64,000 bases of DNA, taken from the IMG/VR virus record IMGVR_UViG_3300030012_004221, positions 64,001 to 128,000 of that record. One strand, 5' to 3'. Made by a program: the position numbers and the translations under genes. The DNA is from a virus. Below are positions 21,170 to 58,423 of this stretch, piece after piece. The first letter of the stretch is position 1. Every line of letters begins with the position of its first letter. Under the pieces are notes generated by a model. It had not been told where the DNA came from. It made no database searches and saw nothing but the letters and a program-made list of their open reading frames with translations.

Positions 21170-22102
21170 TTAAAATTTAAAAAACATTTCTTTATATGGA
21201 TTTAAATTTAATGTCCAACCTAAATCATTATAAAATCCTTCTAATTTATTTAACAAAATACTTTCAAATATTTTTTTCCTATCAGCATTTTGTTCTATAA
21301 ATGTACGTATTTTTTCAGGTAAATCCCAATCTAAAAATGCTATTGCATCAATTTGATATGGGTTAGGTTTTAAATAAATCCATTTAACTTTATCACCCTG
21401 TGTAATTTGACTATGTTTACTACTTAACCCCCAGAATCTAAGTAAATCATTATATCTAATAACAGCTCTTACAGCTGCTGGGGCTCCTTTAGCTACAACA
21501 GTAAACATTTCACCTGCTCTAGCTTTACGTTCAGTATACTTATTTAATGTTTTTACAGATGTTGGGTTACCTAACTCCGTTAATTGAATAGAGCCATCAA
21601 GAATTTGTTTTTTAAAATCTTTTACTCTATTATCTATTTCATTTTGTGCGGCCCCCTTTAAAACATCTACTAATGTTTTATGAAAAAATTTACCTAATAC
21701 AGGTGGGAAATTAGCTTTTTTAAATTCTAATCCTTTAACATCTAATGATTCTTTTACTATACCTTCTTGTTTAGTAATCCATTGTGCATAACGTCTTGTT
21801 GCTCTAAAATAAGCTGAACGTATAACACATTCAGTTTTCATTTCTAGTCTATGTTTACCTTTAGCATTAAAACAATCTTTAGCTAATTTATCATATGATT
21901 TAGTAACAATTCCTTCATAATCCATTGCTATACCTTCTAAAGCATCATCTTTTTCTTCAGCATTCATTTCATCAAAATCATCATGTCTAAATCTTAATAA
22001 AGGTTCAGCATGCATATAAATTGAATCTGTATCACTATAAGTACAGTAATTAGTATCTTCAGGATCACAAATCCACCAAGGAGTATCTTCTAAATGTTTC
22101 AT
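21170..22102 (-). CDS. Family B DNA polymerase, C-terminal subunit (motif C and thumb)
   Basis: YSDTDS motif C, RRYA, KGLE and GDKVKWIYLK. Confidence 0.9.
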   Translation of the reverse strand: MKHLEDTPWWICDPEDTNYCTYSDTDSIYMHAEPLLRFRHDDFDEMNAEEKDDALEGIAMDYEGIVTKSYDKLAKDCFNAKGKHRLEMKTECVIRSAYFRATRRYAQWITKQEGIVKESLDVKGLEFKKANFPPVLGKFFHKTLVDVLKGAAQNEIDNRVKDFKKQILDGSIQLTELGNPTSVKTLNKYTERKARAGEMFTVVAKGAPAAVRAVIRYNDLLRFWGLSSKHSQITQGDKVKWIYLKPNPYQIDAIAFLDWDLPEKIRTFIEQNADRKKIFESILLNKLEGFYNDLGWTLNLNPYKEMFFKF

Positions 22103-23769
22103 GCTTTTATTTCTTTATTCATTGCTCTATTAGCTTCTAATGCAGATTCTTGTATAATACGCTGTCCACTAAGTGTTATAGCTTCAGATAAAATTACATT
22201 ACCATAACGGAATGAACCAAGAGCAGTCGCACCATATAACGAATTAAGCAAAATTTTCATTGTATATTGTTTCATATGATAAGCAGCACCTAATTCTTTA
22301 TCTCCAGATTTATATGCTTTTTTCATTGCATTTTTATACTTAACTCTTTCATCAAACCATTTTTTTAATATAGTTGATAATACTGATTCCCGATTAGTAG
22401 CAAACATTACTCCATTTGCTGAGATAGATAATTCATTTTCTTCAATCATCTTAACTAACCTACCTACATTAACTTTAGTTTGTTTTCTTTTATTATTTTC
22501 AACAATTAATTCTTCAGCATAATCTCTAGTTTTTAAATCATTTAACCCTAAACGATTGTTTCTATCATCAGCATCCATAATTCTACCAACCATAGTTTCT
22601 TTACCAATATTAACAGTCATTATAATTGAAGGATATAGTGATGTTAAATCTAAGTCAAAAACATAGTTATAAATTCCTGCTTTAGGGCAAAATAAATAAC
22701 CACCAGCATAGTTCTTTTTAGATAATGGATTACGATCTTTAGCAGGTGGTATTATATTTTTACTTAATAAATAAGCTGATATAGCTCCATCTTGTGTTTT
22801 AGTATTAGCATAAACTTCACTATAATTATGTTTACCTTTATGAGCCAGATTTTTTACTAATGACAAATACTCTAATTTTTCATCTAGTACTTTTAAAATT
22901 TCAACATCTCGAAAGTTATATTGAATAAATTTAAGGGGATCCTCTTCAAATAATTTATCTAAATTACCATCATATTCTATTTTCTTTATATTAGCATATT
23001 TTTCTCCAATAGCATCTAATTTAAATGATGGTTCATCTGCCCAACTAAATTTCTTATGTAGTCTCATATAATCTAAAGACTCAACACCTGCTATTTGAAT
23101 ATATTGATCTTTAAACCAAGGTGTTTCTCTTACATAACCAATTGGGGATAAATGTCTAGCCCAATCTTCACCTAATACATTACACATTCTATAGTATAAA
23201 TAAGGTATATCAAAATAATCACTATTCCATCCTACTAAAATATCAGGATCAATTTCTCTAAACTTTTCTAAAAATTTTGCTAATAATTCTTCTTCTGTTT
23301 TACAAGGTATAATTTCTTTAGTTTTAGCTTTTGTTCTATCCATTTTAGATTTTGGATCTAAAATTAAAATAGCCCATTGATCTACTTGTTTATCATACCA
23401 TGCTATTGAAGTTACTTTTTTAGGTGCTGATTTAATATAATCTTCAGTAAGTGCATCACCCATTTCTGTTTCAATATCAAAAAATAATTCTTTTTGTGTA
23501 GTTGAGGGTTCATCATTTGTGCCATACTTTTCAACTAGAAATTTTTGATATGGAGTCATATCATGAAAGTGGAGTTTTATATTATCTGATTTCCAATTAG
23601 AAATCTTTTTTAATGACTCTCCATTTAGACCTGTATGTGTAGATTGAGAATCATCACATTCTATGTAAGCTTGATTAGTCCACTCAATTTTACTATAACC
23701 TTTATCTTCCCAAAGATGAACTAAAAATTCATTACCTTTTATTCTTTGAGCAAAACACTTTTTATACAT
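22099..23769 (-). CDS. Family B DNA polymerase, N-terminal subunit (3'-5' exonuclease, motifs A and B)
   Basis: FDIET, GWNSDYFDIPY, YNFRDV, DLTSLYPSI and KILLNSLYG. Confidence 0.93.
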   Translation of the reverse strand: MYKKCFAQRIKGNEFLVHLWEDKGYSKIEWTNQAYIECDDSQSTHTGLNGESLKKISNWKSDNIKLHFHDMTPYQKFLVEKYGTNDEPSTTQKELFFDIETEMGDALTEDYIKSAPKKVTSIAWYDKQVDQWAILILDPKSKMDRTKAKTKEIIPCKTEEELLAKFLEKFREIDPDILVGWNSDYFDIPYLYYRMCNVLGEDWARHLSPIGYVRETPWFKDQYIQIAGVESLDYMRLHKKFSWADEPSFKLDAIGEKYANIKKIEYDGNLDKLFEEDPLKFIQYNFRDVEILKVLDEKLEYLSLVKNLAHKGKHNYSEVYANTKTQDGAISAYLLSKNIIPPAKDRNPLSKKNYAGGYLFCPKAGIYNYVFDLDLTSLYPSIIMTVNIGKETMVGRIMDADDRNNRLGLNDLKTRDYAEELIVENNKRKQTKVNVGRLVKMIEENELSISANGVMFATNRESVLSTILKKWFDERVKYKNAMKKAYKSGDKELGAAYHMKQYTMKILLNSLYGATALGSFRYGNVILSEAITLSGQRIIQESALEANRAMNKEIKA

Positions 23770-31820: not shown

Positions 31821-33029
31821 TTAATTATATTTTATAATTAAATCATCATTATCTCCTGCTTTTAATTCGTCAATCCTTTTTTGTATATTTTTCCAACCTT
31901 TAGGACCATATTTATGAGTTTTAGGAGTTTTTGATTTTAATTCTTCTAATTCCTGAATAGTTAAATTATCTATTGATTCTGTTTGTTGTGGTTCTTCTTC
32001 GTTTTCATCATGAAACCAGTCATTATTTTCATAATGTAACCCTTCATTACCATTCTGGCCTATAATGTTCATTCTTTCTTCATCTTCATCTTTAATATTA
32101 TCAGCATAATATCCCTCTTCAACCCATTTTTCTTCACCTACACTATCTAAGGTTTTGTCTAGATTACTATTAAAATCTTCTTCTACTACAACTTCTTCTC
32201 TATAAAGGTTTTTTTTTGTTTTTGGTCTAATTTGTTCAAAAGCAAAATTAGCAGCTACTACAAGAGCAATTGCTAACGGATCAAATACAAATATAATAGT
32301 TAATAATAACCAATTAATAATTCTATCCATAGGCCAACCAGTTAACCCTGATAGGTATTTAAGAGGTCCTAATTCACTAGATACAGCATCGCTTAATCTT
32401 ATTTCAACTATTTCTTCTTCAAATTTAAACAATGCTTCATTTAATTGATCTATTTTATAATTTATTTCTGTTTGTCTATCAATAGCTTGATCTAATTGTT
32501 GAGTCAAAATTCTACGAGTTGTTGAACTTTGTGTAGTAATTATATTACCTAATGTGTCTTTATACTGTATTCTATTCGTAGATAAACCATTTCTTAAACT
32601 AACCACAGCCTCATTTATAGATGATTTTTCTTCATTATATACAATAAGTTGTTCTTTAACATTATCTCTTTTTACTTCTACTAATTCTATCTTGGCATCA
32701 ATTGTTCCTGCTTTTGCAGCAGTTTCCTGATATGCTGCTGATAAAAATCCATAAATACCCATTGAAGTAATTACAATTAAAACAAAGCAAGCTATGGATA
32801 AATACCATTTTAAAAGCTTAGGGAGGTTTTTTCTGTATTGATATAAAAGAGATGCTATTACTAACTTAGCTATTTCTAGTGAAGCTGCCATTACTATAAC
32901 AGCAAAAGCTGCTCCTGCAAATAATTTACTTAAACCACTAACTGAGTAAAATGCTGCTGATGCACTTACAGATAGTGCCGAGAAAGCAATTAATAAAGGA
33001 AATAGTGATTTTTTAATTTTACTAAGCAT
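31821..33029 (-). CDS. Membrane protein with long coiled coil (DUF4407-like)
   Basis: Three N-terminal TM segments, a coiled coil, a further TM (IIFVFDPLAI) and an acidic tail. Confidence 0.6.
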   Translation of the reverse strand: MLSKIKKSLFPLLIAFSALSVSASAAFYSVSGLSKLFAGAAFAVIVMAASLEIAKLVIASLLYQYRKNLPKLLKWYLSIACFVLIVITSMGIYGFLSAAYQETAAKAGTIDAKIELVEVKRDNVKEQLIVYNEEKSSINEAVVSLRNGLSTNRIQYKDTLGNIITTQSSTTRRILTQQLDQAIDRQTEINYKIDQLNEALFKFEEEIVEIRLSDAVSSELGPLKYLSGLTGWPMDRIINWLLLTIIFVFDPLAIALVVAANFAFEQIRPKTKKNLYREEVVVEEDFNSNLDKTLDSVGEEKWVEEGYYADNIKDEDEERMNIIGQNGNEGLHYENNDWFHDENEEEPQQTESIDNLTIQELEELKSKTPKTHKYGPKGWKNIQKRIDELKAGDNDDLIIKYN

Positions 33030-33083: not shown

Positions 33084-33968
33084 TTATAGATTTACTAACA
33101 TATCAACTAATTCTTGTTGAGGGAACATATCAAATTTATCTTTCCTAGTATTAGTGTGAGTCCATAACCCTTTTATTCTACCATAATAAGCATCTTCATT
33201 AAAATCAAACCCTTTACTAACACCATATTTTTTAATTACAGCTGGTAGTCCTTGTCTAACATCAATATTATCTCTATCTGCTATATGTAGTATTAATTTT
33301 TTTAAATTTTCTATTTGTTTATTTGAATATCTATGCCATGCATTAAACCCTCTAAAAGATTCATTTAATGTAACAACTTGTGAATCATCAGCTAACTGCC
33401 CCGCATATGTTCTTCCATTTTTAAGATATCCAAAATTATTAACCTCAATACCTACAGAATGTATATGCATGTGTTGTGAACCATTTTTTCCTAAATGCCA
33501 TCCATATCCACCTTCTGGAAATGCCTGAACTACTTCACCATCATATTGGTTATCATTTCCTTTTATTGATTGTCCCCCTAAAACAAATTCAGTAGCAACA
33601 GCTCCTCTATTATCTCTAGCCCAGTGATCTATAGTTCTAAATGGATTATGCCAACCTGCTGTGTGGTGAAGAAATAAATATTCTTTATTCCAAGCTCCTT
33701 CTTTATATTCTCCTAATGGTAAATAATGTTTATTAATAAGTAAACCATTTTCGGTTACATATGATTTTTCAGTATTATCTGTACTAGCAATGCCCATAAT
33801 ATCTAGTGTTTGAGGGCCTACTATTCCATCAACTATTAAATTATTTTTGATTTGGTATTCTTTGACTGCTTTTTCTGTTCCAGGACCGAATATCCCGTCA
33901 GCATCTATTCCTAAAAATTCTTGGAGGTCTTTTACCTCAGTTCCTTTAGATCCTACTCTTAATATCAT
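33084..33968 (-). CDS. Endolysin: peptidoglycan-binding domain plus N-acetylmuramoyl-L-alanine amidase
   Basis: DGIFGPGT and DGIVGPQT (PG-binding). LHHTAG, SVGIEV and THTNTRKDKFD (Amidase_2). Confidence 0.9.
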   Translation of the reverse strand: MILRVGSKGTEVKDLQEFLGIDADGIFGPGTEKAVKEYQIKNNLIVDGIVGPQTLDIMGIASTDNTEKSYVTENGLLINKHYLPLGEYKEGAWNKEYLFLHHTAGWHNPFRTIDHWARDNRGAVATEFVLGGQSIKGNDNQYDGEVVQAFPEGGYGWHLGKNGSQHMHIHSVGIEVNNFGYLKNGRTYAGQLADDSQVVTLNESFRGFNAWHRYSNKQIENLKKLILHIADRDNIDVRQGLPAVIKKYGVSKGFDFNEDAYYGRIKGLWTHTNTRKDKFDMFPQQELVDMLVNL

Positions 33969-33999
33969 ATCTTATTAGTTTTATTTATTATAAATATCA

Positions 34000-34329
34000 C
34001 TAAAAGGCACTCATTATAAGTTCGTCAATATAGTCTTGAAGTTCTTCTCTAGTAGCTGCAACTTTAAAACTTAAATCTGCTTGGTACCTTTTTACTTCTT
34101 CTCCATCTTGATAGATTATTATTGTAGGTACTACTACAACTTTATGTTTTTGTTGAAGTGATGGGTCAGAGGCAATATCAACTTTAGTTACATCACAATC
34201 TGATAATTTTTCGACCCATTTAACATCGTTAGCTGAGTTCCACCCTGCGTTAAAATGTGTTACTGTTACTTGACCATAAATAGTCGTTGATAATAACCAA
34301 AATATTGGTAATAAAATGTATTTTTTCAT
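34000..34329 (-). CDS. Secreted thioredoxin-fold protein lacking CxxC
   Basis: Signal peptide, HFNAGWN in place of WCxxC, VVPTII and GEEVKR. Confidence 0.6.
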   Translation of the reverse strand: MKKYILLPIFWLLSTTIYGQVTVTHFNAGWNSANDVKWVEKLSDCDVTKVDIASDPSLQQKHKVVVVPTIIIYQDGEEVKRYQADLSFKVAATREELQDYIDELIMSAF

Positions 34330-34335
34330 AATAGA

Positions 34336-34620
34336 TTATCTTAATCTATCAATTTTTTCTTCAATACGTTTCATGTCTTCCTTAAGCTCCTTTACATCAT
34401 CCTGCGTAGTCATGATTGTTTGACGAATCAATTGATCTTTCATATCATACTCCATCCTAGTTACATCTGGTGGAGGTGGTACTGGTAGTTCTTTTGCTTC
34501 AGCAATGTCTGCTTGTAAAACAAACCACATAGAAATAATAGTAGTCATTACTGCTCCAATACCTACTAATGTTTTGATGCTTACAGTGAAACCAGTATTT
34601 TCATTTAACTCTTTTGCCAT
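34336..34620 (-). CDS. Small single-TM protein with Pro-rich linker and coiled coil
   Basis: One TM segment, PVPPPP and a C-terminal heptad pattern. Confidence 0.6.
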   Translation of the reverse strand: MAKELNENTGFTVSIKTLVGIGAVMTTIISMWFVLQADIAEAKELPVPPPPDVTRMEYDMKDQLIRQTIMTTQDDVKELKEDMKRIEEKIDRLR

Positions 34621-34622
34621 TT

Positions 34623-35699
34623 TTAAAATATTATATAATTTACACCCATTGAAAACTCATGCCACCTTCTATTCCAATATTTATTGTATTTACCTTCTGC
34701 AAATAACCCTAAAGATCTACTTAGTTTATAACCAAATATTAATCCACCAGAATAATCAATCCATTGTCCTCCGTTATAAGTATGGTAAGAAAATTCATCG
34801 GCTGTCTTTAGGTGGTAAGGCATTATATTTCCCCACGCATGTGCCCAGAAGTTTTTTTCATAGTGGTAAAAATCAGCACCTAATACAAAAGAATATTCTA
34901 ATTTAAAGGGAGCTTCATCTCTTTTCTTTTCAACATAATCTACTAATATTTGAGGAATTATTACTTCTTCCCAAACAGCTGTACTTGTAGCAACTACATC
35001 ACCTGATGGGTTTAGATATACTACATCACCAGGTCCATTAAAATTAACAACATATCCTTCTTGAATAGCTAACCAAGTATAATGAAGATTATTATTACTT
35101 AACATCCACTCAGCTAAAGGATCATAACCATAAGGTTCTGATAGTCTTTGTGCTGCTCCTACATTTAATGAAAACTTTTTATTTACGTTATATCTATATC
35201 TTTGGGATGATTCAAAATACTCAACATCAACAAATCCATCTTTTAAATATTCTACTTTTGCTACCCAATCATTTGCAACATACCTTAAAAAATGGTGTTG
35301 GTTAAAGTAATTTATACCTTGTATTCTTCTATAATCACCTTCAAATAAAAACTCAAATCCTTTTATTTTACCAACTGTTGCATTATCACCTAAATGACCT
35401 TCTGTACCATCATAAAATACATTTTCTCTATTTTCATAATCAAACCTAGCTATCTTTCTTACACCTGCTACTATAGAATAATCAAAGGGTGTTTCTACTA
35501 CGTCAGTAATTAATTGACCAGTATTTACTGTAAATGTGTTTCTATCTGATAGTGAGGTTCCACCATTTACAGCTGCATAAAACGTAGAAAATTTAAATGT
35601 CTTTTTTAATTCTTTTTTAAATTCAGAGACTTTATCTACTTTCTCTTGACCAAAAACTATAGATGGGATAAGTAATATTAATATAATTATCTTTTTCAT
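34623..35699 (-). CDS. Putative outer-membrane beta-barrel protein
   Basis: Signal peptide, amphipathic aromatic-rich strands and C-terminal GVNYIIF, a BAM-type terminal Phe signature. Confidence 0.65.
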   Translation of the reverse strand: MKKIIILILLIPSIVFGQEKVDKVSEFKKELKKTFKFSTFYAAVNGGTSLSDRNTFTVNTGQLITDVVETPFDYSIVAGVRKIARFDYENRENVFYDGTEGHLGDNATVGKIKGFEFLFEGDYRRIQGINYFNQHHFLRYVANDWVAKVEYLKDGFVDVEYFESSQRYRYNVNKKFSLNVGAAQRLSEPYGYDPLAEWMLSNNNLHYTWLAIQEGYVVNFNGPGDVVYLNPSGDVVATSTAVWEEVIIPQILVDYVEKKRDEAPFKLEYSFVLGADFYHYEKNFWAHAWGNIMPYHLKTADEFSYHTYNGGQWIDYSGGLIFGYKLSRSLGLFAEGKYNKYWNRRWHEFSMGVNYIIF

Positions 35700-35700
35700 A

Positions 35701-38685
35701 TTATTCTTTTATAATTCTTTTAAAGTACGTATTACCTTCATGTTTTATATTTAAGAAATATACTCCAGATGGTAAATCTGTAAAATCAATTTGTTTTTCT
35801 GTTATTCTAGATTTTAATGTTCTACCATTAACATCATATAACTCAGCTTCTATATCTAAATCTGTTTCGATTATTAAGATGTTTTCTGTTGGGTTAGGGT
35901 AAACTACTATACCATTAAATCTAGAAAATCTACTATTTATATCTAATCCATCAGGCCAACCATTTTCACAATAGTTATACATTTCTTGACAAACTGGATC
36001 CCAATCATTATCACAACAGTAATTATCTACATCAATTACCCAAGCATAACAATTATTATTTAACCAATATGGGTTGCCAGGTCCTGTAATACAACCTGCA
36101 TCATATAAACAAGCTGATGAATCTGAAACATTTGCATTTGGATCATAATTGAATGCATTTGGATCTGTACAACCTACTATTGCTGTTATACAACTACCAT
36201 TATCTACATTAGCATTAGGGTCATAATTAACTGCTGTTGAATCAGTACACCCATAAACTATTGGAATACATGGATTAGTGAAATCTGTAGCTGATACTTG
36301 ATTTACATTTGCATTAGGATTATAATTAAATGATCCTGGATCCATACAACCATAAACAAAAGGAACACAAGAACCATTATCTGTATTAGCTAAAGGATCA
36401 TAATTAAACGATGTTGAATCAGTACAACCATAAATTATAGGTTCACATGATCCATTATCTGTATTTGCATTAGGGTCATAATTAAATGCTGTTGCATCTG
36501 TACATCCATATACAATTGGTATACAAGGATTTGACGTATCATTTGCACTTACTTGGTTAATATTTGCATTTGGATCATAGTTAAATGAACCTGGGTCTGT
36601 ACAACCATATACAGCTGGTATACAACTACCATCATCTGTATTTGCATTTGCATCATAGTTAAATGCTGTTATATCTGTACAACCATAAATTATTGGAACA
36701 CATGAACTATCATCTGTATTTGCATTTGGATCATAATTAAATGATGTTGGGTCAGTACAACCTAAAACTACTGGTATACAAGTACCAGGTGTATTTGCAG
36801 TTGGGTCATAGTTAAATGCTGTCGAATCCATACAACCTGTAACAACTGGTATACAAGAACCATCATCAACAGTTGCTGTTGAATCATAATTAAATGCTAA
36901 AGGATTTGTACAACCTTCTATATATGGAATACAAGGATCATTTGGATCTAATGTATTTGCATCTGGGTTGTAATTTAATGAAGTTGAATCAGTACAACCA
37001 TAAACTATAGGAATACAAGAATCCCCACAAAATGGTGTAGCTACATATTTTTCATAAAATGGAGCTTCAAATGGTTGTAATGCTCCTTGTCCATTATTAG
37101 CAAATGGGTTTATTCCTTCTTGTAATAAAACAACACTATCTGCATTTTCTAATGTAAATGAATTATGCCAAGTTTGAAATTGAACTTGTTGAGGTGAGGA
37201 TTGTGGGCTACCTACTTCAAAATAAAATACTTCTACTGTTTTATCTGTTTCCAATTGGAATTGGAATGTTTGTTCATATGAACCAGGTCCCATAGTAAAT
37301 GTACCTACTGGCACACCATTTTGAGCAACACCTAAATATGAATTACCCCAACCATCACCTGCAGCATCTTCTATAGTTAAGAAATAATCACATACAGGTA
37401 CAATTGCTTGTTGAGTTGCTGATGGATCATAATTTATAGAATTAGAATCTGTACAACCTACTATATGTAAATTAGCACATGAACCATCATCTACATTTGC
37501 TGAATCACTATATTCTTGGTAAGCTGGATCTGTACAACCATAAACATCAGGAATAACAGGACAAGCAGTTGCTTGTTGTGGTCCTGAATATAATACATTT
37601 CCAAAATTTGGAGTTGTCATTTCCCAAATAGTATCACCAGCACAATCTTTTATAACAACACTACCTGGTCCTGATTGTTGGGTACCAACCATACCATCTC
37701 CATAGGTATCATTTAAAATAAGTTCAAATCCTGCTGTTTGTGATACACAAAAATTATAAATGTAAGTTTGACCAATATCATTATAACCATATTCTCCTGG
37801 TTGTACTGAACCTATGATTCCACCACTATTCATTGTCCAAGATGTTTCACCTGGCCAATTATCTAATGTTATTTCCATTGTGATTGGATATTCTGTAAGA
37901 CTATCACAACCTGCATTTCCAGCACAGCTTCCATCATCTGCTGTAGCCCAAGGATTATAAGATGTTTGACTTGAATCTGTACATCCTTCTATACATGGTG
38001 ATGGTGTATATGTAATAGTATCTGATAAAGTTCCATCACTAAATTCTACTTGAAGGTAATGTTCAACACTCCAATTAGGAGGCATTTGTCCATTTCCTGC
38101 TAACATTCCATAATTAGTAGCAAATGGTGGAACACCTTGATAAAATGGCCCCCATCCTTCTTCATTCCAATATTTTACGTTTACTGGATCACACCATCCA
38201 TTTTCCCATTCCCAAACTACTAATGCTTGTTCACCACCTAAACATTGTTGGTAAGCATTTGTATTTGTAATAGCACATACAGGTGGGGGACAAGGTAATA
38301 GATTTATTGTTGTATCATATTGAGTAAAACTCCCTAACGAATCTACATCTAAATCTAAAATTACACCTTGACATTCATTTGATATTTTAATCCATGCTGG
38401 TGTGTTGGCATTATTATTTTGTGGTCCTCCTTGCCACCCATCACCCCAAGAATCTAGTAATGATATATCTAACTCACCTGAGTCAGCTTGGATTGTTGTG
38501 GAATAAAATTCAAAAGGATTGTTTGGTTGGTAGTTTACTAATGTATCACCTTGTTGTGTGATTAGTGCGAATGATTCATCGTCAGCGTAATAATCGAATT
38601 GTACTTCTAACTTGAACCAACTGTCATTTTGCGAAAAACCTAAAAAAGGGAGTACGCATAACAGTAGTACTAAGATTTTTTTCAT
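35701..38685 (-). CDS. Secreted Cys-repeat protein with T9SS type-A C-terminal sorting domain
   Basis: Sec signal peptide, about 14 GCTD..A.NY...A..DDGSC repeats and C-terminal VYPNPT..LYDVNG..LPSGVYFLNI..KRIIKE. Confidence 0.85.
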   Translation of the reverse strand: MKKILVLLLCVLPFLGFSQNDSWFKLEVQFDYYADDESFALITQQGDTLVNYQPNNPFEFYSTTIQADSGELDISLLDSWGDGWQGGPQNNNANTPAWIKISNECQGVILDLDVDSLGSFTQYDTTINLLPCPPPVCAITNTNAYQQCLGGEQALVVWEWENGWCDPVNVKYWNEEGWGPFYQGVPPFATNYGMLAGNGQMPPNWSVEHYLQVEFSDGTLSDTITYTPSPCIEGCTDSSQTSYNPWATADDGSCAGNAGCDSLTEYPITMEITLDNWPGETSWTMNSGGIIGSVQPGEYGYNDIGQTYIYNFCVSQTAGFELILNDTYGDGMVGTQQSGPGSVVIKDCAGDTIWEMTTPNFGNVLYSGPQQATACPVIPDVYGCTDPAYQEYSDSANVDDGSCANLHIVGCTDSNSINYDPSATQQAIVPVCDYFLTIEDAAGDGWGNSYLGVAQNGVPVGTFTMGPGSYEQTFQFQLETDKTVEVFYFEVGSPQSSPQQVQFQTWHNSFTLENADSVVLLQEGINPFANNGQGALQPFEAPFYEKYVATPFCGDSCIPIVYGCTDSTSLNYNPDANTLDPNDPCIPYIEGCTNPLAFNYDSTATVDDGSCIPVVTGCMDSTAFNYDPTANTPGTCIPVVLGCTDPTSFNYDPNANTDDSSCVPIIYGCTDITAFNYDANANTDDGSCIPAVYGCTDPGSFNYDPNANINQVSANDTSNPCIPIVYGCTDATAFNYDPNANTDNGSCEPIIYGCTDSTSFNYDPLANTDNGSCVPFVYGCMDPGSFNYNPNANVNQVSATDFTNPCIPIVYGCTDSTAVNYDPNANVDNGSCITAIVGCTDPNAFNYDPNANVSDSSACLYDAGCITGPGNPYWLNNNCYAWVIDVDNYCCDNDWDPVCQEMYNYCENGWPDGLDINSRFSRFNGIVVYPNPTENILIIETDLDIEAELYDVNGRTLKSRITEKQIDFTDLPSGVYFLNIKHEGNTYFKRIIKE
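36108..37000 (-). repeat. Tandem array of 11 GCTD/DDGSC coding repeats of roughly 25-33 codons
   Basis: Visible in both the protein and the DNA (recurrent tacaacc and ggatcata-like words). Confidence 0.85.
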
Positions 38686-38691
38686 ACTATT

Positions 38692-38934
38692 TTAATTTTG
38701 TTCTTCTGATTTTTTACCACCAAATATTTTCTCTAAGCCAGCTATACCAAAACAGCCAAGAGTTATTAAGGTAAAAGAATCATAAATAAATTCATTGATA
38801 ACTAAATCCCTACCTAAGTAACCTGTTACAAGGTCTACCACTGCAAAGATAACCATAATTGCAAAAGACATAAATCCAATTACGCTTTTTTCATTAATAT
38901 CATTATTATCTTTGAATATATTTTTAAATGCCAT
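38692..38934 (-). CDS. Two-TM holin-like membrane protein
   Basis: Two TM segments and a charged C-terminus, in a late operon upstream of the endolysin. Start set at MAFKN. Confidence 0.5.
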   Translation of the reverse strand: MAFKNIFKDNNDINEKSVIGFMSFAIMVIFAVVDLVTGYLGRDLVINEFIYDSFTLITLGCFGIAGLEKIFGGKKSEEQN

Positions 38935-38998
38935 AAATTTTCTTTTTATTAAATTCATACACAAAACTTTGTAATATACTTAATGGTAACGATTTGGC

Positions 38999-39007
38999 TA
39001 TAAATAT
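38999..39007 (-). promoter_or_regulatory. Late-type promoter motif ATATTTATA
   Basis: Recurrent motif heading the holin-like/T9SS cassette. Confidence 0.6.
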
Positions 39008-39009
39008 AG

Positions 39010-39034
39010 GAGGAGTATACAAAGTACACTCCTC
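39010..39034 (-). terminator. Stable hairpin (terminator or processing site)
   Basis: GAGGAGUGUAC-UUU-GUAUACUCCUC forms an 11-bp stem with one G-U pair. The U-tract is weak. Confidence 0.55.
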
Positions 39035-39065: not shown

Positions 39066-39368
39066 TTATTTTTTTCTAGGTTTTCTTCCCTTTCTTTTTT
39101 TTCCCTTAGCTGCGTCAACAACATCTTTTGATTGACTAGCTAATTCCTTAGCAGCTACAGCAACGTCTTTTAATTCTTCTTTAACTCGCTTTGCTCTGCG
39201 TTTTACTTCTTTAACACCTTTTTTAACATCTTCAACAGCATCTTCTACTTCGTCAGGGATGTAATCTCCATCTCTATCGTTAATTTTACCTTTTTTATAA
39301 AATTCAAAGTAGTAAATAGCAGCTCCAGTTACTAATAAAAGTGCAACAATAACTAATGTTGTAATCAT
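39066..39368 (-). CDS. Membrane-anchored protein with basic coiled-coil tail
   Basis: N-terminal TM, DRDGDYIPD and a Lys/Arg-rich end. Confidence 0.6.
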   Translation of the reverse strand: MITTLVIVALLLVTGAAIYYFEFYKKGKINDRDGDYIPDEVEDAVEDVKKGVKEVKRRAKRVKEELKDVAVAAKELASQSKDVVDAAKGKKRKGRKPRKK

Positions 39369-41769: not shown

Positions 41770-42756
41770 TTAAAATATTGATGCAGCGTCCCAATTTTGA
41801 ACACCTTTTGAATAATTAGTAACTCTATTTGCAAAGAAATCTGTATGTTGTTTACCTGCTGATAAACTGTCAAACCAGCTCATTCTTTGTACTGCTTCTG
41901 TATCAATACCATTTACGATAGGATCATAACCTAAATCACCCATTTTAGTATTTAATCTATGTTTAATAAATGATACTAAATCATATTTAGTACATCCTTC
42001 TAAATCACCCATTTCATAAACTTTATCAATAAAATCTAATTCTAGTTTTAAAGATAAACGAGCTGCTTCTTCAATTTCTTCTTTTAATTTAGGAGTATCC
42101 AATTCTGGATGTTCTTTTAATAATGTTCTAAATAACCAACAACCAGCATCTGAGTGTAAGGATTCATCTCTAATACTCCATTCAACTATTTGTCCTACAC
42201 CTTTAAGTTTATTTTGTAATTTAAATGAAAGTAAAACTGCAAATGAGGAAAATAAATTTACACCTTCTGTAAATGCTGAAAATATAGCTAATGATTTTGC
42301 TCTTTCATGCCAATCAGGAGTACCATCATGAGAATCTTTAACAGCCATTAATGTTTCAATTTTTGCTGCTGTTGTTTCATCTTCTAAAAATTCTGCAAAA
42401 TTATCTAATCCTAATTCTTCATTTAATAAAGAATAAGCTTCGGCATGAATAGTTTCAAAACAACCAAAAGTAACAGCCATAGCAATAACTTCAGGTTTTC
42501 TAAACCATTTAGTAACTAAAGTTGACCAATAATCATTTACTACAGTCTCTGTTTGGGCAAATCCCTTAAGTATTGAACCTACAATATTTTTTTCAGTTTC
42601 AGATAAATTTTGTTTCCAATCGTTTACATCTGCCATCATTGGTACTTCTGTCCATAACCAATGGGCTTGCTGTTGTTTCATGTAGAAATCAAATGCTTCT
42701 GGGTATTCAAAGGGTTTATATACGATACGTTCTTGTAATAATGATTTTTTTGCCAT
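41770..42756 (-). CDS. nrdB: Ribonucleotide reductase class Ia beta subunit
   Basis: ETIHAEAY, EGVNLFSSF, RDESLH and DFFANRVTNY. Confidence 0.95.
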   Translation of the reverse strand: MAKKSLLQERIVYKPFEYPEAFDFYMKQQQAHWLWTEVPMMADVNDWKQNLSETEKNIVGSILKGFAQTETVVNDYWSTLVTKWFRKPEVIAMAVTFGCFETIHAEAYSLLNEELGLDNFAEFLEDETTAAKIETLMAVKDSHDGTPDWHERAKSLAIFSAFTEGVNLFSSFAVLLSFKLQNKLKGVGQIVEWSIRDESLHSDAGCWLFRTLLKEHPELDTPKLKEEIEEAARLSLKLELDFIDKVYEMGDLEGCTKYDLVSFIKHRLNTKMGDLGYDPIVNGIDTEAVQRMSWFDSLSAGKQHTDFFANRVTNYSKGVQNWDAASIF

Positions 42757-52866: not shown

Positions 52867-55013
52867 TATTCTCCTAATATATCATTTTGATTGTTATTAT
52901 CTCCATCACCTGTTGCATTATACTCTCTATAAACATCTGCATAATTACCTCTAGAATTAGGTGCATTTGCCATAGCTATATATCTACTATTTGGGTTGTT
53001 TGCGTTATTTGGTTTTTGTGGTAGGAATGTATGAATAGGAGTGAACGAAAACCCGCTTACTTTAACCATATGTGGGAGTTCTTTAACTGATGAATCAACT
53101 CCACCTTCAGCATTTATAGCTATTTCCCAAGGAGCTTCTTCTGGAACATCATAGGTTAACTGGGTTATAAATCCTGGTTGTTCATATAAATAACCTCCTA
53201 CTGTTAGTCTAACTAGATTTCCTCTCATAAATCCAGCTTGTGTATAATCTGGTGATAGGGTTGAAGCTAAATAATTTAATTTTTTATGCATTGGAATTAA
53301 CTCTGCTTTTGATTGAGCAAAACAAGTAAATCCTAAACTAATTGATCTACCAAACCCTCCATAATTATATAAAGTGTCACCTCTACCTACATATTGAACT
53401 TCATTCCAACTTGCATTATATGAATCACTAAATGAATCTAAATGGGCTCTAAAATGCATATAAACTGCTTGTCTATTAGCTGCATCATTGTCAATAGCAG
53501 CTATTCTAAACTTAACTAAATCGTTTATAGCTAATTCAGTATTAGGACCCGCACTAGTGTACATAGGTTGAGCTGTAATTTTATCTAACGCCTCTAATTC
53601 ATTAGCAGCAATACCATAATCCCAAACATTTTTAATAAATCCTTGTTCTGTACCTGTATTAGACTTTCCTGGTTGGCCCATATTCAGTCTTCTATCTATA
53701 TTTTTAGTTCTGTAATCTGGTGATAAAGATAAAATTGTTGATCTTTGATTACCTCCTGTTCCATCTGCGTTTTTAGCTGCTGCACTTCCTTCATTTGGAC
53801 CTGTGTATAATTCTTTTCTAAAGTCTTGAGGATAAAGGATTGGTTCTCCTTTACTTACGTTTTCTTTATCTTGTAATTGATTTAAATTATATGTAAGAGA
53901 TCTAAAACCACCAAAACCTACTAAATCACCATCATATAAAACTTTAGGATCAGTTAATAATTCATCACCGGTATCAAACTCATAACCAAATACAGCATTA
54001 TTATTAGTTTGAATTAATCTTATTCCACCTGAACCTGCATATGATGGTTGCCCAACAGTTGAAATATAATCCCCACCTACTGAATTTTGAAGCATTATTT
54101 TTCCTAATGCTGATGTTTGATTTAAACCCAAAGATGTTAAAAATTTATCTGTTGCATTTAAAGAATTAACACTTAAAGGAGTTAAACCTAAATTAGTTAA
54201 ATCATCAGTAACATTTGCCGTATAACTTTGATAACCTACTTGATATGCTTTATTTAAAATTCCTGATCCTTTTCTATTTGCTGCTCCTGTTCTTTGGTCT
54301 GCAAATTTAATATTTGTTTTTCCTATTCCTAGTATAGACCCTGGACCGCCACTATAAGCATATATATTTTGATCATTTTTAGTACCTACTTCAATTGCTC
54401 TATCATTAAAAATAACTAATCTATTATTTTTTCCACCATCATTTTCATCATTAAACTTAGCTGTAGCTGCTGTGTATGTTTTTATTCCTAAATCTCCATC
54501 AAATAATGATCCTTCTACAACCCCACTTATAGGTGAAAATGGATCCACACCAAAAAGATTAGGATGAACACCTAATCCATTACCTAAAGCAGCTGCCAAA
54601 GTACTTATAGGAGTATAAATACCTTGATTTACATTACCCCCACCTTTAATTACTTTACCTGATTCATTTGTACTAAAGACAAAAGGAGAAGCACCGCCAT
54701 AACCTATACCAAAAGATGCTGGTGTTTTAACTGATGTTCTAGATAATAAGTTTTGTTTTGCTATAAATTTTATCCCTGAAGCCCCATCTATCATGTACTT
54801 CCCTAATCTAGCTACATCATCTACTGCATTAGATACAGATTTTAGCCCTCCTCTAATTATAAAGTCAGGGCCTGACCTTACTGGAAGATCATCATTACTT
54901 AACCCTTCAGGAATATCTTTAGTAATGTAAGGTTGTTTACTATCACCTCCACCACGTTGATCTCTCCCAAAAGACAAAGATTTTAAATCTGTCTGGAAAT
55001 TAATTAGAGGCAT
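52866..55013 (-). CDS. Baseplate / tail-tube initiator-like structural protein
   Basis: C-terminal FRAHLDSFSDSY, YVGRG, LTVGGY and ELPH. Follows the tape measure gene. Confidence 0.6.
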   Translation of the reverse strand: MPLINFQTDLKSLSFGRDQRGGGDSKQPYITKDIPEGLSNDDLPVRSGPDFIIRGGLKSVSNAVDDVARLGKYMIDGASGIKFIAKQNLLSRTSVKTPASFGIGYGGASPFVFSTNESGKVIKGGGNVNQGIYTPISTLAAALGNGLGVHPNLFGVDPFSPISGVVEGSLFDGDLGIKTYTAATAKFNDENDGGKNNRLVIFNDRAIEVGTKNDQNIYAYSGGPGSILGIGKTNIKFADQRTGAANRKGSGILNKAYQVGYQSYTANVTDDLTNLGLTPLSVNSLNATDKFLTSLGLNQTSALGKIMLQNSVGGDYISTVGQPSYAGSGGIRLIQTNNNAVFGYEFDTGDELLTDPKVLYDGDLVGFGGFRSLTYNLNQLQDKENVSKGEPILYPQDFRKELYTGPNEGSAAAKNADGTGGNQRSTILSLSPDYRTKNIDRRLNMGQPGKSNTGTEQGFIKNVWDYGIAANELEALDKITAQPMYTSAGPNTELAINDLVKFRIAAIDNDAANRQAVYMHFRAHLDSFSDSYNASWNEVQYVGRGDTLYNYGGFGRSISLGFTCFAQSKAELIPMHKKLNYLASTLSPDYTQAGFMRGNLVRLTVGGYLYEQPGFITQLTYDVPEEAPWEIAINAEGGVDSSVKELPHMVKVSGFSFTPIHTFLPQKPNNANNPNSRYIAMANAPNSRGNYADVYREYNATGDGDNNNQNDILGE

Positions 55014-58066: not shown

Positions 58067-58098
58067 CTTTACCTGACTATATTTTGGTATAAATATCG

Positions 58099-58124
58099 AA
58101 AGGCATCATTTTTTTGATGCCTTT
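58099..58124 (-). terminator. 10-bp hairpin over the stop codon of the chaperone extension
   Basis: AAAGGCAUCA-A6-UGAUGCCUUU, immediately followed by an ATATTTATA motif. Confidence 0.5.
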
Positions 58125-58423
58125 GATACATAGTTAGGTGTTGATTTTAAAGATTTATTGGTTGGAGGGTTAAATGCTTGTTTTGGTATTTTTGATTTAT
58201 CAGGATTTGCTAAATCAATATTAGTCCCCTTTCCTTTCATTTTACCCTTCATGGCTTCAGCCTCTTGCTTTTTAATATCACTAATTTGTTGGAAAGTAAA
58301 TTTACGTAACCAAAGAGGCATATTATAGACGGTATGAAAGTCATACCCACCACCACCAAAATAGACTATTTCGTTAATTTGTTTAAATAACGATACTCTA
58401 AACTGTGGCGTCAGGCCAAAAAA
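58106..58423 (-). CDS. Tail assembly chaperone C-terminal extension (GT-like), probably reached by frameshift
   Basis: The frame is open without Met from the T7 run (FFGLTPQFRVSLFKQINEIVYFGGGGYDFHTVYN) into the tracked ORF starting at 58321. Confidence 0.7.
   Translation of the reverse strand, partial: FFGLTPQFRVSLFKQINEIVYFGGGGYDFHTVYNMPLWLRKFTFQQISDIKKQEAEAMKGKMKGKGTNIDLANPDKSKIPKQAFNPPTNKSLKSTPNYVSKASKK

What the first reader, a model, noticed from the sequence alone, without database searches (positions are those of the whole stretch)
33084..39007. Phage-encoded T9SS cargo, beta-barrel and periplasmic partners: a late envelope-remodelling cassette
Seen: behind one late-type motif lie a 2-TM protein, a 994-aa protein with signal peptide, about 14 disulfide-type repeats and a T9SS type-A sorting domain, a signal-peptide beta-barrel ending in Phe, a 1-TM coiled-coil protein and a secreted CxxC-less Trx-fold protein. 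The last four are spaced only 1-6 nt apart, and the endolysin follows. Known: type-A CTDs route Bacteroidota proteins through the T9SS to the cell surface, and virion proteins assembled in the cytoplasm do not need signal peptides. Inference: the phage hijacks the host T9SS and BAM to display its own surface complex. Possible roles are superinfection exclusion, adhesion or aggregation with new hosts, grazer defence, or spanin-independent outer-membrane disruption. I know of no described phage system of this kind.
Basis: partly seen in the sequence, partly recalled or inferred. Interest (0 to 1): 0.85.

Follow-up and report, generated by a model that had tools for sequence, protein, structure and literature searches.

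The report
Phage envelope trio plus T9SS cargo
An uncultured 158-kb marine phage of flavobacteria-like hosts encodes, beside its lysis genes, a large cysteine-rich protein tagged for the host's type IX secretion system and a conserved trio of outer-membrane barrel, inner-membrane helix protein and inactive periplasmic thioredoxin; the set recurs in hundreds of uncultured phages and nobody has tested what it does.

Summary
On the minus strand lie a small membrane protein, a 994-aa secreted repeat protein with a true T9SS type-A sorting domain (TIGR04183, 50.9 bits against a cut-off of 23), a 358-aa outer-membrane beta-barrel, a 94-aa one-TM helical protein, a 109-aa exported thioredoxin without CxxC, and an amidase endolysin. 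The middle genes are 1-6 nt apart.

It is not a one-off. The barrel has at least 532 relatives in IMG/VR. In 41 of 41 well-flanked loci the cargo, barrel, TM protein and Trx-like gene stay together, in rotated orders.

The reading as one surface complex is only partly supported. The barrel, TM and Trx trio also occurs without any T9SS cargo in a second phage lineage (about 45-kb podovirus-like genomes), just upstream of a holin. The endolysin has its own promoter-like motif, and its adjacency is not conserved. In the large-phage lineage the barrel co-varies with the cargo's sorting domain, and the TM protein co-varies with the Trx-like protein.

Best reading (confidence 0.4): a lysis-linked envelope trio onto which a T9SS-displayed fibre was added.

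Phage T9SS cargo has been noted in papers. I found no description of the trio. This scan has met the same module before on other DNA.

The parts
39010..39034 (-). terminator-like hairpin (11-bp stem) that closes the upstream unit (rz100)
   Evidence: sequence read
38998..39007 (-). late-type promoter-like motif ATATTTATAG ahead of tm90
   Evidence: the same motif stands ahead of the tail sheath gene (62125-62116) and other structural genes
38692..38964 (-). tm90: small membrane protein with 1 strong and 1 weak hydrophobic segment, a holin candidate; homologue of immuto gp192, which directly abuts that phage's endolysin
   Evidence: a tm90 homologue lies within 3 kb of 18 of the 34 related modules that have at least 3 kb on both sides
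35701..38685 (-). cargo (994 aa): signal peptide, chain of beta-sandwich domains, Cys-rich repeat stalk, T9SS type-A CTD
36106..37005 (-). 12 tandem 26-aa disulfide-type repeats of the cargo (residues 561-860)
   Evidence: 78-nt period, 74-78% matches
35704..35904 (-). T9SS type-A C-terminal sorting domain (residues 928-994) with YPNP, GVYF and K-x-x-x-K-type end motifs
   Evidence: kept in 10 of 10 homologues
34623..35699 (-). barrel358: Sec-exported outer-membrane beta-barrel of 12-14 strands, with a conserved insert at residues 188-265 and a C-terminal Phe
34336..34620 (-). cc94: N-in inner-membrane anchor, Pro-rich linker and periplasmic helix; no Cys; very conserved
34000..34329 (-). trx109: exported thioredoxin-fold protein; CxxC replaced by a conserved WNSxN; cis-Pro kept; invariant C-terminal Phe
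33988..33997 (-). second copy of the late-type motif, 20 nt ahead of the endolysin start
33084..33968 (-). endolysin (PG_binding_1 + Amidase_2), with no signal peptide; a neighbour of the cassette, not a conserved part of it

Best explanation
This is a late-transcribed envelope cassette made of two separable units. It sits inside the lysis region of a 158-kb myovirus of a Bacteroidota (Flavobacteriales-like) host.

Unit 1 is a trio. It comprises an outer-membrane beta-barrel (Sec export, then BAM insertion), an inner-membrane-anchored helical protein, and a periplasmic thioredoxin-fold protein that has lost its redox cysteines. Together the three occupy all three layers of the envelope.

Unit 2 is a fibre-like cargo. 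It has beta-sandwich head domains and a disulfide-repeat stalk. It crosses the inner membrane by Sec, folds in the periplasm and is passed outward by the host's T9SS through its type-A CTD.

Shown: the domains, the export signals, the strict co-occurrence, the independence of the trio from the cargo in a second phage lineage, and the recurrent placement beside holins and endolysins.

Inferred:
- The trio works at the end of infection, at or with the outer-membrane step of lysis. The barrel would play the outer-membrane part that a lipoprotein o-spanin plays elsewhere, and cc94 with the Trx-like protein would form the inner-membrane and periplasmic side.
- In the large-phage lineage the cargo was added and uses the phage barrel as its docking or anchoring partner on the cell surface.
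For: - Identity of the parts.
- Phage context: the window is part of a 97%-complete virus record that encodes a tail sheath. The closest cultured relative is Flavobacterium phage immuto.
- Bacteroidota host: all three signal peptides expose Gln, as the Q-rule predicts (PMC5837995; alignments). A 95%-identical copy lies in a Flavobacteriales MAG that has PorP/SprF genes.
- Conservation: the barrel has at least 532 viral relatives. All four genes are present in 41 of 41 well-flanked loci, on one strand, in orders that are rotations of C-B-I-T. The cargo family holds 1,968 clusters, nearly all with PF18962.
- Trio as the core: in podovirus-like genomes the order I-T-B is found in 69 of 80 loci, with no CTD in any of the 80 and none in 5 near-complete genomes. 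There the three proteins co-vary (rho 0.74-0.80), whereas the adjacent holin does not co-vary with them (rho 0.02-0.17).
- Link to lysis: a GTA_holin_3TM holin lies a median 455 nt after the barrel in 62 of 80 podovirus loci. Among the 80 myovirus loci, 15 have the amidase endolysin nearby and 7 have an immuto-type holin. Compared with immuto, the four genes sit exactly between the tm90 homologue and the endolysin.
- No canonical spanin pair was found in the whole phage genome. Kongari et al. 2018 counted 91 of 677 phages without spanins and proposed that an OMP could act as an o-spanin (PMC6139136).
- Barrel-cargo link: the two genes are 1 nt apart. Barrel versus CTD co-variation is 0.81-0.82 within gene-order classes, against 0.12-0.20 for barrel versus the equally adjacent cc94.
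Against: - No experiment exists. Function rests on context and topology.
- The periplasmic part of cc94 is only about 55 residues, which looks short for a spanin-type bridge.
- Spanins usually diverge fast, whereas the barrel (58-81% identity) and cc94 (60-86%) are strongly conserved.
- In the myovirus lineage barrel and cc94 hardly co-vary (rho 0.13-0.20). That is not what direct spanin-like partners would be expected to show.
- Only 18 of 34 modules with at least 3 kb on both sides have a recognisable lysis marker within 3 kb, and for 12 of those 18 the marker is tm90, whose role as a holin is itself a guess.
- Phage moron genes for outer-membrane proteins also tend to sit beside lysis genes (lambda bor; from my own knowledge), so adjacency is weak evidence.
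- Co-variation may reflect where recombination breaks fall rather than binding.
Confidence: 0.4

Rival explanations
1. A pure surface-remodelling complex with no part in lysis. The barrel, cc94 and Trx-like protein build an envelope platform, and the T9SS fibre is displayed on it. The complex would mask receptors, block superinfection, keep progeny from sticking to cell debris, or make infected cells adhere.
For: - All parts are exported, and the cargo head is a chain of beta-sandwich domains like adhesins and glycan-binding proteins, with no enzyme fold.
- The cargo head and CTD diverge faster (median identity 48% and 44%) than the barrel (62%) and cc94 (73%), as ligand-facing surfaces do.
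- Stalk length varies from 689 to 1389 aa.
- The barrel co-varies with the CTD.
- Phage-encoded outer-membrane barrels are common in BFVD.
Against: - The trio exists without any phage T9SS cargo in a second lineage.
- Expression appears to be late, from a motif shared with structural genes. That is a poor time for exclusion.
- The trio recurs beside holins of two unrelated families.
Confidence: 0.3
2. The barrel is a solute channel of the KdgM/NanC/Tsx kind. With its two partners it changes outer-membrane permeability or uptake during infection, as an auxiliary metabolic function.
For: - The best structural matches are 12-stranded specific channels: KdgM Z 12.9, NanC Z 12.2, Tsx Z 11.5.
- Many Arg/Lys/Glu residues at alternating strand positions are conserved across the whole superfamily.
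Against: - Autotransporter beta-domains, LpxR and OMPLA score almost as well, so the match is to a general fold.
- The promoter motif is of the late type.
- The model assigns no role to cc94 or the Trx-like protein.
Confidence: 0.1
3. The three small proteins are only private helpers of the cargo. The Trx-like protein would be a chaperone for its 47 cysteines, cc94 its membrane tether, and the barrel a PorP/SprF-like or PorV-like acceptor.
For: - Co-occurrence with the cargo is strict in the myovirus lineage, 41 of 41 loci.
- The cargo and barrel genes are 1 nt apart.
- The barrel co-varies with the CTD.
- In hosts, PorP-like barrels anchor type-B cargo (PMC9143113, listed).
Against: - The trio occurs without cargo in complete podovirus genomes.
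- The barrel shows no profile similarity to PorP/SprF (hhalign probability 0.5%; no Pfam hit).
- The CTD is type A, which needs no private barrel in known systems.
- The Trx-like protein lacks any redox cysteine in 16 of 16 homologues.
Confidence: 0.08
4. The proteins are ordinary virion components, and the 'signal peptides' and 'CTD' are look-alikes.
For: - A repeat-bearing protein of Synechococcus phage S-CAM3 that matches the stalk repeats is annotated as a virion structural protein.
- In the podovirus lineage the trio lies between head and tail genes.
Against: - Three proteins have consistent cleavable signal peptides with Gln at the cleavage site across homologues.
- The barrel has an outer-membrane fold with a terminal aromatic residue.
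- The CTD scores about twice its cut-off in both libraries and always sits at the extreme C-terminus.
- There is no PHROG structural hit.
Confidence: 0.03
5. The cassette is a one-off insertion taken from the host and has no meaning for the phage.
For: - The closest cultured relative, immuto, lacks the four genes.
- A distant barrel relative (27% identity) lies alone on a bacterial-looking contig.
Against: - There are hundreds of viral relatives with the same gene set.
- The only hits in 185,579 species genomes are six MAG contigs that look like binned phage.
Confidence: 0.01

Closest known systems
Phage-encoded T9SS type-A cargo ('Cryophage', Bellas et al. 2020, PMC7468147; T9SS sorting domains in crAss-like BACON ORFs, de Jonge et al. 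2019, PMC6949934)
   Same: A phage gene for a secreted protein ends in a type-A sorting domain. It is presumed to use the host's T9SS.
   Different: In those phages the cargo genes are variable island genes: glycoside hydrolases, a PA14 protein and BACON repeats. Here the cargo is a conserved, non-enzymatic fibre. It is always linked to a barrel, TM protein and Trx-like trio and sits in the lysis region.
Two-component spanins (lambda Rz/Rz1 type; Kongari et al. 2018, PMC6139136)
   Same: There is an N-in inner-membrane protein with a periplasmic helix and an outer-membrane partner. The genes are packed tightly beside holin and endolysin. The phage has no canonical spanin.
   Different: The outer-membrane part is a 358-aa beta-barrel, not a small lipoprotein. 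There is a third, thioredoxin-fold member. The helix protein is short and has no Cys. Conservation is far higher than is usual for spanins.
PorP/SprF-like barrels that anchor type-B T9SS cargo (Gorasia et al. 2022, PMC9143113)
   Same: A barrel gene lies directly after a T9SS cargo gene, and here the barrel co-varies with the cargo's CTD.
   Different: There is no sequence-profile relation to PorP/SprF. The cargo has a type-A CTD, not type B. The barrel also occurs in phages without cargo.
Phage moron outer-membrane proteins and lytic-conversion proteins (lambda Lom and Bor, T5 Llp; from my own knowledge)
   Same: These are phage-encoded proteins placed in the host's outer membrane, often encoded near lysis or tail genes.
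   Different: Those are single small proteins of temperate or T5-type phages. Here a co-evolving three-layer set is conserved across hundreds of lytic-type marine phages.
F-plasmid TraF/TrbC-type thioredoxin-fold proteins without CxxC (weak Pfam TrbC_Ftype hit; TraF from my own knowledge)
   Same: A periplasmic thioredoxin fold has lost its active-site cysteines and serves an envelope machine.
   Different: The match is far below the family cut-off (17.4 bits against 24.2). The trx109 family is closer to true thioredoxins.

Membership tests
T9SS type-A cargo | C-terminal domain matching TIGR04183 / PF18962 above the curated cut-off, at the extreme C-terminus | tested here: met
   50.9 bits (cut-off 23) and 47.5 bits (cut-off 27) at residues 928-994 of 994; 10 of 10 homologues score 30-48 bits
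T9SS type-A cargo | N-terminal Sec signal peptide for entry into the periplasm | tested here: met
   Hydrophobic segment at residues 1-19 followed by S-Q. The segment is conserved in homologues. SignalP was not available.
T9SS type-A cargo | Host possesses a T9SS | tested here: inconclusive
   A Flavobacteriales MAG that holds a 95%-identical copy has 5-6 PorP/SprF genes. However, the phage-host link rests on binning only.
T9SS type-A cargo | Secretion depends on the T9SS, and PorU removes the CTD | not testable with these tools
   Needs expression in wild-type versus gldN/sprA/porU mutant cells
PorP/SprF outer-membrane barrel | Match to PF11751 / profile similarity to PorP/SprF proteins | tested here: not met
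   No Pfam hit at E <= 0.1. hhalign of A2 against five PorP/SprF proteins of MAG G001 gave probability 0.5%.
PorP/SprF outer-membrane barrel | Paired with a type-B CTD cargo | tested here: not met
   The neighbouring cargo carries a type-A CTD
PorV / FadL-type 14-stranded shuttle | FadL-like fold | tested here: inconclusive
   FadL chains match only weakly (TMq 0.24-0.30) and are not among the 50 best VIA rows. The top rows are 12-stranded barrels.
Two-component spanin | i-spanin: N-in single-TM inner-membrane protein with a periplasmic coiled coil | tested here: inconclusive
   cc94 has that topology. However, its periplasmic part is only about 55 aa, and it matches no spanin PHROG.
Two-component spanin | o-spanin: small outer-membrane lipoprotein with a lipobox Cys | tested here: not met
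   The barrel has an SPI-type signal (FGQ), has no Cys at all, and is 358 aa. No lipoprotein is embedded in or beside cc94 or rz100.
Two-component spanin | Encoded in the lysis cassette | tested here: met
   In this window the genes lie between tm90 and the endolysin. In relatives this holds only in part.
Thioredoxin family | Thioredoxin fold / profile match | tested here: met
   PF00085 scores 27.3 bits (cut-off 23.5). The family profile matches PDB thioredoxins at E 1.9e-9.
Thioredoxin family | CxxC redox site | tested here: not met
   W-N-S-x-N or similar in 16 of 16 homologues; no conserved Cys
Amidase_2 endolysin | PG_binding_1 plus N-acetylmuramoyl-L-alanine amidase domain; no signal peptide | tested here: met
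   51.2 and 35.5 bits, both above cut-off; endolysin PHROGs

The most novel reading that the evidence does not exclude
The barrel, the inner-membrane helix protein and the dead thioredoxin form a new, barrel-based device for breaching (or timing the breach of) the outer membrane. It would be used by many marine Bacteroidota phages in place of spanins. One lineage has in addition docked a T9SS-exported fibre onto the barrel.
Probability: 0.25. Interest if true: 0.8.

Novelty: new variant of a known kind. Interest (0 to 1): 0.6.

Why it matters
Flavobacteriia are major degraders of algal matter in the sea, and their phages are abundant but poorly understood. How these phages open the outer membrane is not known.

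This gene set is present in hundreds to thousands of uncultured phage genomes. It spans all envelope layers and lies beside the lysis genes, which makes it a concrete candidate to test.

It would also be a clear, conserved case of a lytic phage using a phylum-specific secretion system (T9SS) for its own protein. The cargo's CTD and signal peptides also give a sequence-only marker for assigning uncultured marine phages to Bacteroidota hosts.

Tried and rejected
- Complex prediction on barrel + cc94 + Trx-like (partner: Trx-like) gave no verdict, score 0.01. It is not used as evidence either way.
- PorP/SprF kinship of the barrel was rejected at the profile level.
- No Pfam, NCBIfam, PHROG or PADLOC family matched the barrel or cc94. 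Ten distant barrel relatives also matched nothing in Pfam.
- Cultured phages (INPHARED): no barrel and no cc94 homologue. trx109 matched only generic thioredoxins.
- The scan of species genomes returned only six MAG contigs that look like binned phage.
- Alignment A2 was too diverse for a locus scan.
- L094 and L095 could not be reached as whole records.
- The type-B CTD search of the podovirus genomes was empty, but its control was silent too, so it is uninformative.
- I considered that the barrel is an enzyme (OMPLA/LpxR-like). Ser270, His287 and Asp315 are conserved in at least 27 of 30 sequences. Strand register suggests Ser270 and His287 are far apart, and I had no coordinates to test this, so it stays a lead only.
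- The sigma-70 promoter scan was at chance level and is not suited to Bacteroidota.
- Neighbouring small ORFs in relatives gave no Pfam clue.
- ESM Atlas look-alikes of cc94 (DUF7365, DUF2730) score 0.80-0.90 and are leads only.
Full report
**What is there**

The window is bases 64001-128000 of a 158,183-bp IMG/VR virus record rated 97% complete. Nearly all genes are on the minus strand. The record encodes a tail sheath, a split family-B DNA polymerase, GroEL and a ribonucleotide reductase. Its closest cultured relative is Flavobacterium phage vB_FspM_immuto (160 kb; tail sheath 53% identical).

The finding's coordinates hold six minus-strand genes.

- **tm90 (38964-38692).** A small membrane protein.
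- **Cargo (38685-35701, 994 aa).**
  - It has a signal peptide and 47 cysteines.
  - It carries twelve tandem 26-residue repeats and three dispersed copies. The DNA period is 78 nt.
  - Its C-terminal domain scores 50.9 bits on TIGR04183 (cut-off 23) and 47.5 bits on PF18962 (cut-off 27).
- **Barrel (35699-34623, 358 aa).**
  - It has a signal peptide and a terminal Phe.
  - Its AlphaFold2 model (pLDDT 78, pTM 0.72) is a 12-14-stranded barrel with an inserted domain at residues 188-265.
- **cc94 (34620-34336, 94 aa).** One TM segment, then a proline-rich stretch and a helix.
- **trx109 (34329-34000, 109 aa).** An exported thioredoxin-fold protein in which W-N-S-A-N replaces W-C-x-x-C.
- **Endolysin (33968-33084).** PG_binding_1 plus Amidase_2.

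The gaps are 6, 1, 2, 6 and 31 nt. A terminator-like hairpin (39034-39010) and the motif ATATTTATAG (39007-38998) precede tm90. The same motif stands before the tail sheath gene and other structural genes. A further copy stands 20 nt before the endolysin start.

**Is it a phage feature or an accident?**

- In the 80 loci fetched, the cargo, cc94 and trx109 homologues lie on the same strand as the barrel.
- All three are present in 41 of the 41 loci that have at least 4.5 kb on both sides.
- The gene order varies, but only by rotation: C-B-I-T, I-T-C-B and B-I-T-C.
- Ten diverse cargo homologues all keep the type-A domain at their very end.
- The cargo's N-terminal part defines 1,968 protein clusters. 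Nearly all carry PF18962, and the longest contig is 147 kb.
- ESM Atlas look-alikes of cargo and barrel are viral only.
- Among 185,579 species genomes, only six MAG contigs match. One is a 95%-identical copy of the whole region in a Flavobacteriales MAG, and that MAG has five or six PorP/SprF genes.
- All three signal peptides, here and in relatives, expose a glutamine, which is the Bacteroidota 'Q-rule' (PMC5837995). Phage proteins that obey the rule have been noted in Porphyromonas phages (PMC10367356).

The 'one-off insertion' refutation fails. The host is very probably a member of the Bacteroidota.

**The key new point: two units, not one**

A distant barrel relative (P0046, 29% identity) lies in podovirus-like genomes of 35-57 kb with a P22-type portal and an SU10-type capsid protein. 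That second family has at least 130 members in IMG/VR.

- cc94, Trx-like and barrel homologues stand in the order I-T-B in 69 of 80 loci.
- No locus has a sorting domain.
- Five genomes that are 90-100% complete have no type-A domain by either model.

So the trio is the conserved core, and the T9SS cargo is an addition in the large-phage lineage. In immuto, the tm90 homologue gp192 directly abuts the endolysin gp191 and a holin gp190, and the gene after them (gp185) is the homologue of the window's 402-aa membrane protein. Relative to immuto, the four genes are thus an insertion exactly inside the lysis region.

**Context of the trio**

- In the podovirus family, a GTA_holin_3TM holin lies a median 455 nt after the barrel in 62 of 80 loci.
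- In the myovirus family, the amidase endolysin is nearby in 15 of 80 loci, an immuto-type holin in 7, and tm90 homologues in about 29.
- Of 34 modules with at least 3 kb on both sides, 18 have such a marker within 3 kb. The link to lysis genes is therefore recurrent and spans two holin families, but it is not universal with the markers I could recognise.
- A crude scan of the whole phage genome found no canonical spanin pair.
- Kongari et al. found no spanin in 91 of 677 phages of Gram-negative hosts. They wrote that an outer-membrane protein could act as an o-spanin.

**What the parts look like**

- **Barrel.**
  - Its best matches are 12-stranded outer-membrane barrels: KdgM Z 12.9, EstA and NalP beta-domains Z 12.7 and 11.6, NanC Z 12.2, Tsx Z 11.5, LpxR Z 10.6 and OMPLA Z 10.5. 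This is a generic fold match.
  - It has no profile relation to PorP/SprF.
  - A set of Arg, Lys and Glu residues, together with Ser270, His287 and Asp315, is conserved across the superfamily.
- **Cargo.**
  - The first 560 residues fold as a chain of beta-sandwich domains (pLDDT 75.6). They resemble adhesins, glycan-binding proteins and FN3 arrays, with no enzyme fold.
  - Each module carries a D-x-aromatic-G-D-G motif.
- **trx109.** The family is a true thioredoxin relative (E 1.9e-9 against PDB thioredoxins). It lacks the redox cysteines in all 16 sequences, keeps the cis-proline and ends in an invariant Phe.
- **cc94.** It has no known relatives.

**Co-variation**

I compared pairwise distance matrices over 52 loci in each family.

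| Family | Pair | Spearman rho |
|---|---|---|
| Myovirus | barrel vs cargo CTD, overall | 0.44 |
| Myovirus | barrel vs cargo CTD, within C-B-I-T and I-T-C-B classes | 0.81-0.82 |
| Myovirus | barrel vs cargo CTD, within B-I-T-C class | 0.56 |
| Myovirus | the two halves of the barrel, against each other | 0.73 |
| Myovirus | cc94 vs Trx-like | 0.52-0.72 |
| Myovirus | barrel vs cc94 (equally adjacent) | 0.13-0.20 |
| Podovirus | the three trio proteins among themselves | 0.74-0.80 |
| Podovirus | adjacent holin vs trio | 0.02-0.17 |

The holin result shows that adjacency alone does not give correlation. This points to a specific tie between the barrel and the cargo's sorting domain, and between cc94 and the Trx-like protein. 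It is not proof of binding, because shared ancestry and the placement of recombination breaks can give the same picture.

**Reading**

- *Shown:* the localisation signals, the folds, T9SS targeting by sequence, conservation, separability, and the recurrent lysis-gene context.
- *Inferred (confidence 0.4):* the trio acts at the end of infection, at or with the outer-membrane step of lysis. In the large phages, a T9SS-exported fibre has been added that uses the barrel as its partner on the surface.
- *Main rival (0.3):* a surface-remodelling complex with no lysis role, acting in receptor masking, exclusion, protection of progeny from debris, or adhesion.
- *Lesser rivals:* a solute channel (0.1), private helpers of the cargo only (0.08), and virion parts (0.03). 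The one-off insertion is refuted.

**Novelty**

Phage-encoded T9SS type-A cargo is in the literature (PMC7468147; PMC6949934), and phage-encoded outer-membrane barrels are annotated in many genomes. I found no paper that describes the barrel, TM protein and dead-thioredoxin trio or its link to a T9SS cargo.

This scan has met the same module before on other genomes, with follow-up readings close to mine. I reached the trio/cargo split before reading them. One of them gave me the Kongari reference, which I checked. I rate the finding a new variant of known kinds, of solid but not top interest, because the function remains untested.

Noticed in passing
window 33988-33997 (-): The endolysin has its own copy of the late-type motif ATATTTATAA in the 31-nt gap after trx109, so it need not belong to the cassette's transcript.
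   Followed up: partly
window 39066-39368 (-): rz100 is a 100-aa protein with one TM segment and a highly charged helix. It has a weak Rz-like spanin PHROG hit (E 3.4e-5). No embedded or adjacent lipoprotein gene was found. Immuto has a look-alike (gp195, annotated FliL-like) at the same place.
   Followed up: partly
window 31821-33029 (-): A 402-aa protein with several TM segments, a coiled coil and an acidic tail follows the endolysin. It is 42% identical to immuto gp185 and stays with the lysis region in 12 related loci. It may be a lysis or membrane-remodelling factor.
   Followed up: partly
G000:C1:41776-58285 (outside the window, upstream of it): The phage encodes further exported candidates. 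Two are probable lipoproteins (213 aa at 41776-42417 and 238 aa at 57569-58285, both with L-F-S-C). One is a 137-aa protein with a signal peptide and Gln at the cleavage site (54393-54806).
   Followed up: no
L083:690-2303 (-): On a bacterial-looking contig that also holds a lone distant barrel relative, a 537-aa Esterase_PHB protein matches the profile of the cargo's N-terminal modules (E 1e-19). The cargo's modules therefore also occur in secreted bacterial enzymes.
   Followed up: no
L133:5350-5565 and five other podovirus loci: Close tm90 homologues (E about 1e-35) also occur in some podovirus-like genomes, directly after the capsid genes and several kb from the trio. tm90 is therefore a mobile small membrane-protein gene, and its role as a holin is unproven.
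   Followed up: partly
window 22099-23769 and 21170-22102 (-): This phage has a split family-B DNA polymerase where immuto has a family-A enzyme. This fits the polymerase swapping described for the immuto group (PMC11348598).
   Followed up: no
L086 (NZWA01000061.1, 43-kb contig of a Flavobacteriales MAG): A 95%-identical copy of the whole region, in the same gene order, is binned into a bacterial MAG. Other copies sit in MAGs labelled Nitrosopelagicus, Parvibaculum and Rickettsiales, which are evidently mis-binned phage contigs.
   Followed up: partly
barrel residues 83-113 (window 35361-35453, -): This stretch is among the most conserved of the barrel in the 22 close relatives, yet AlphaFold2 models it with pLDDT below 50. 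By strand count it would be a long periplasmic turn, so it is a candidate docking site for a partner.
   Followed up: no
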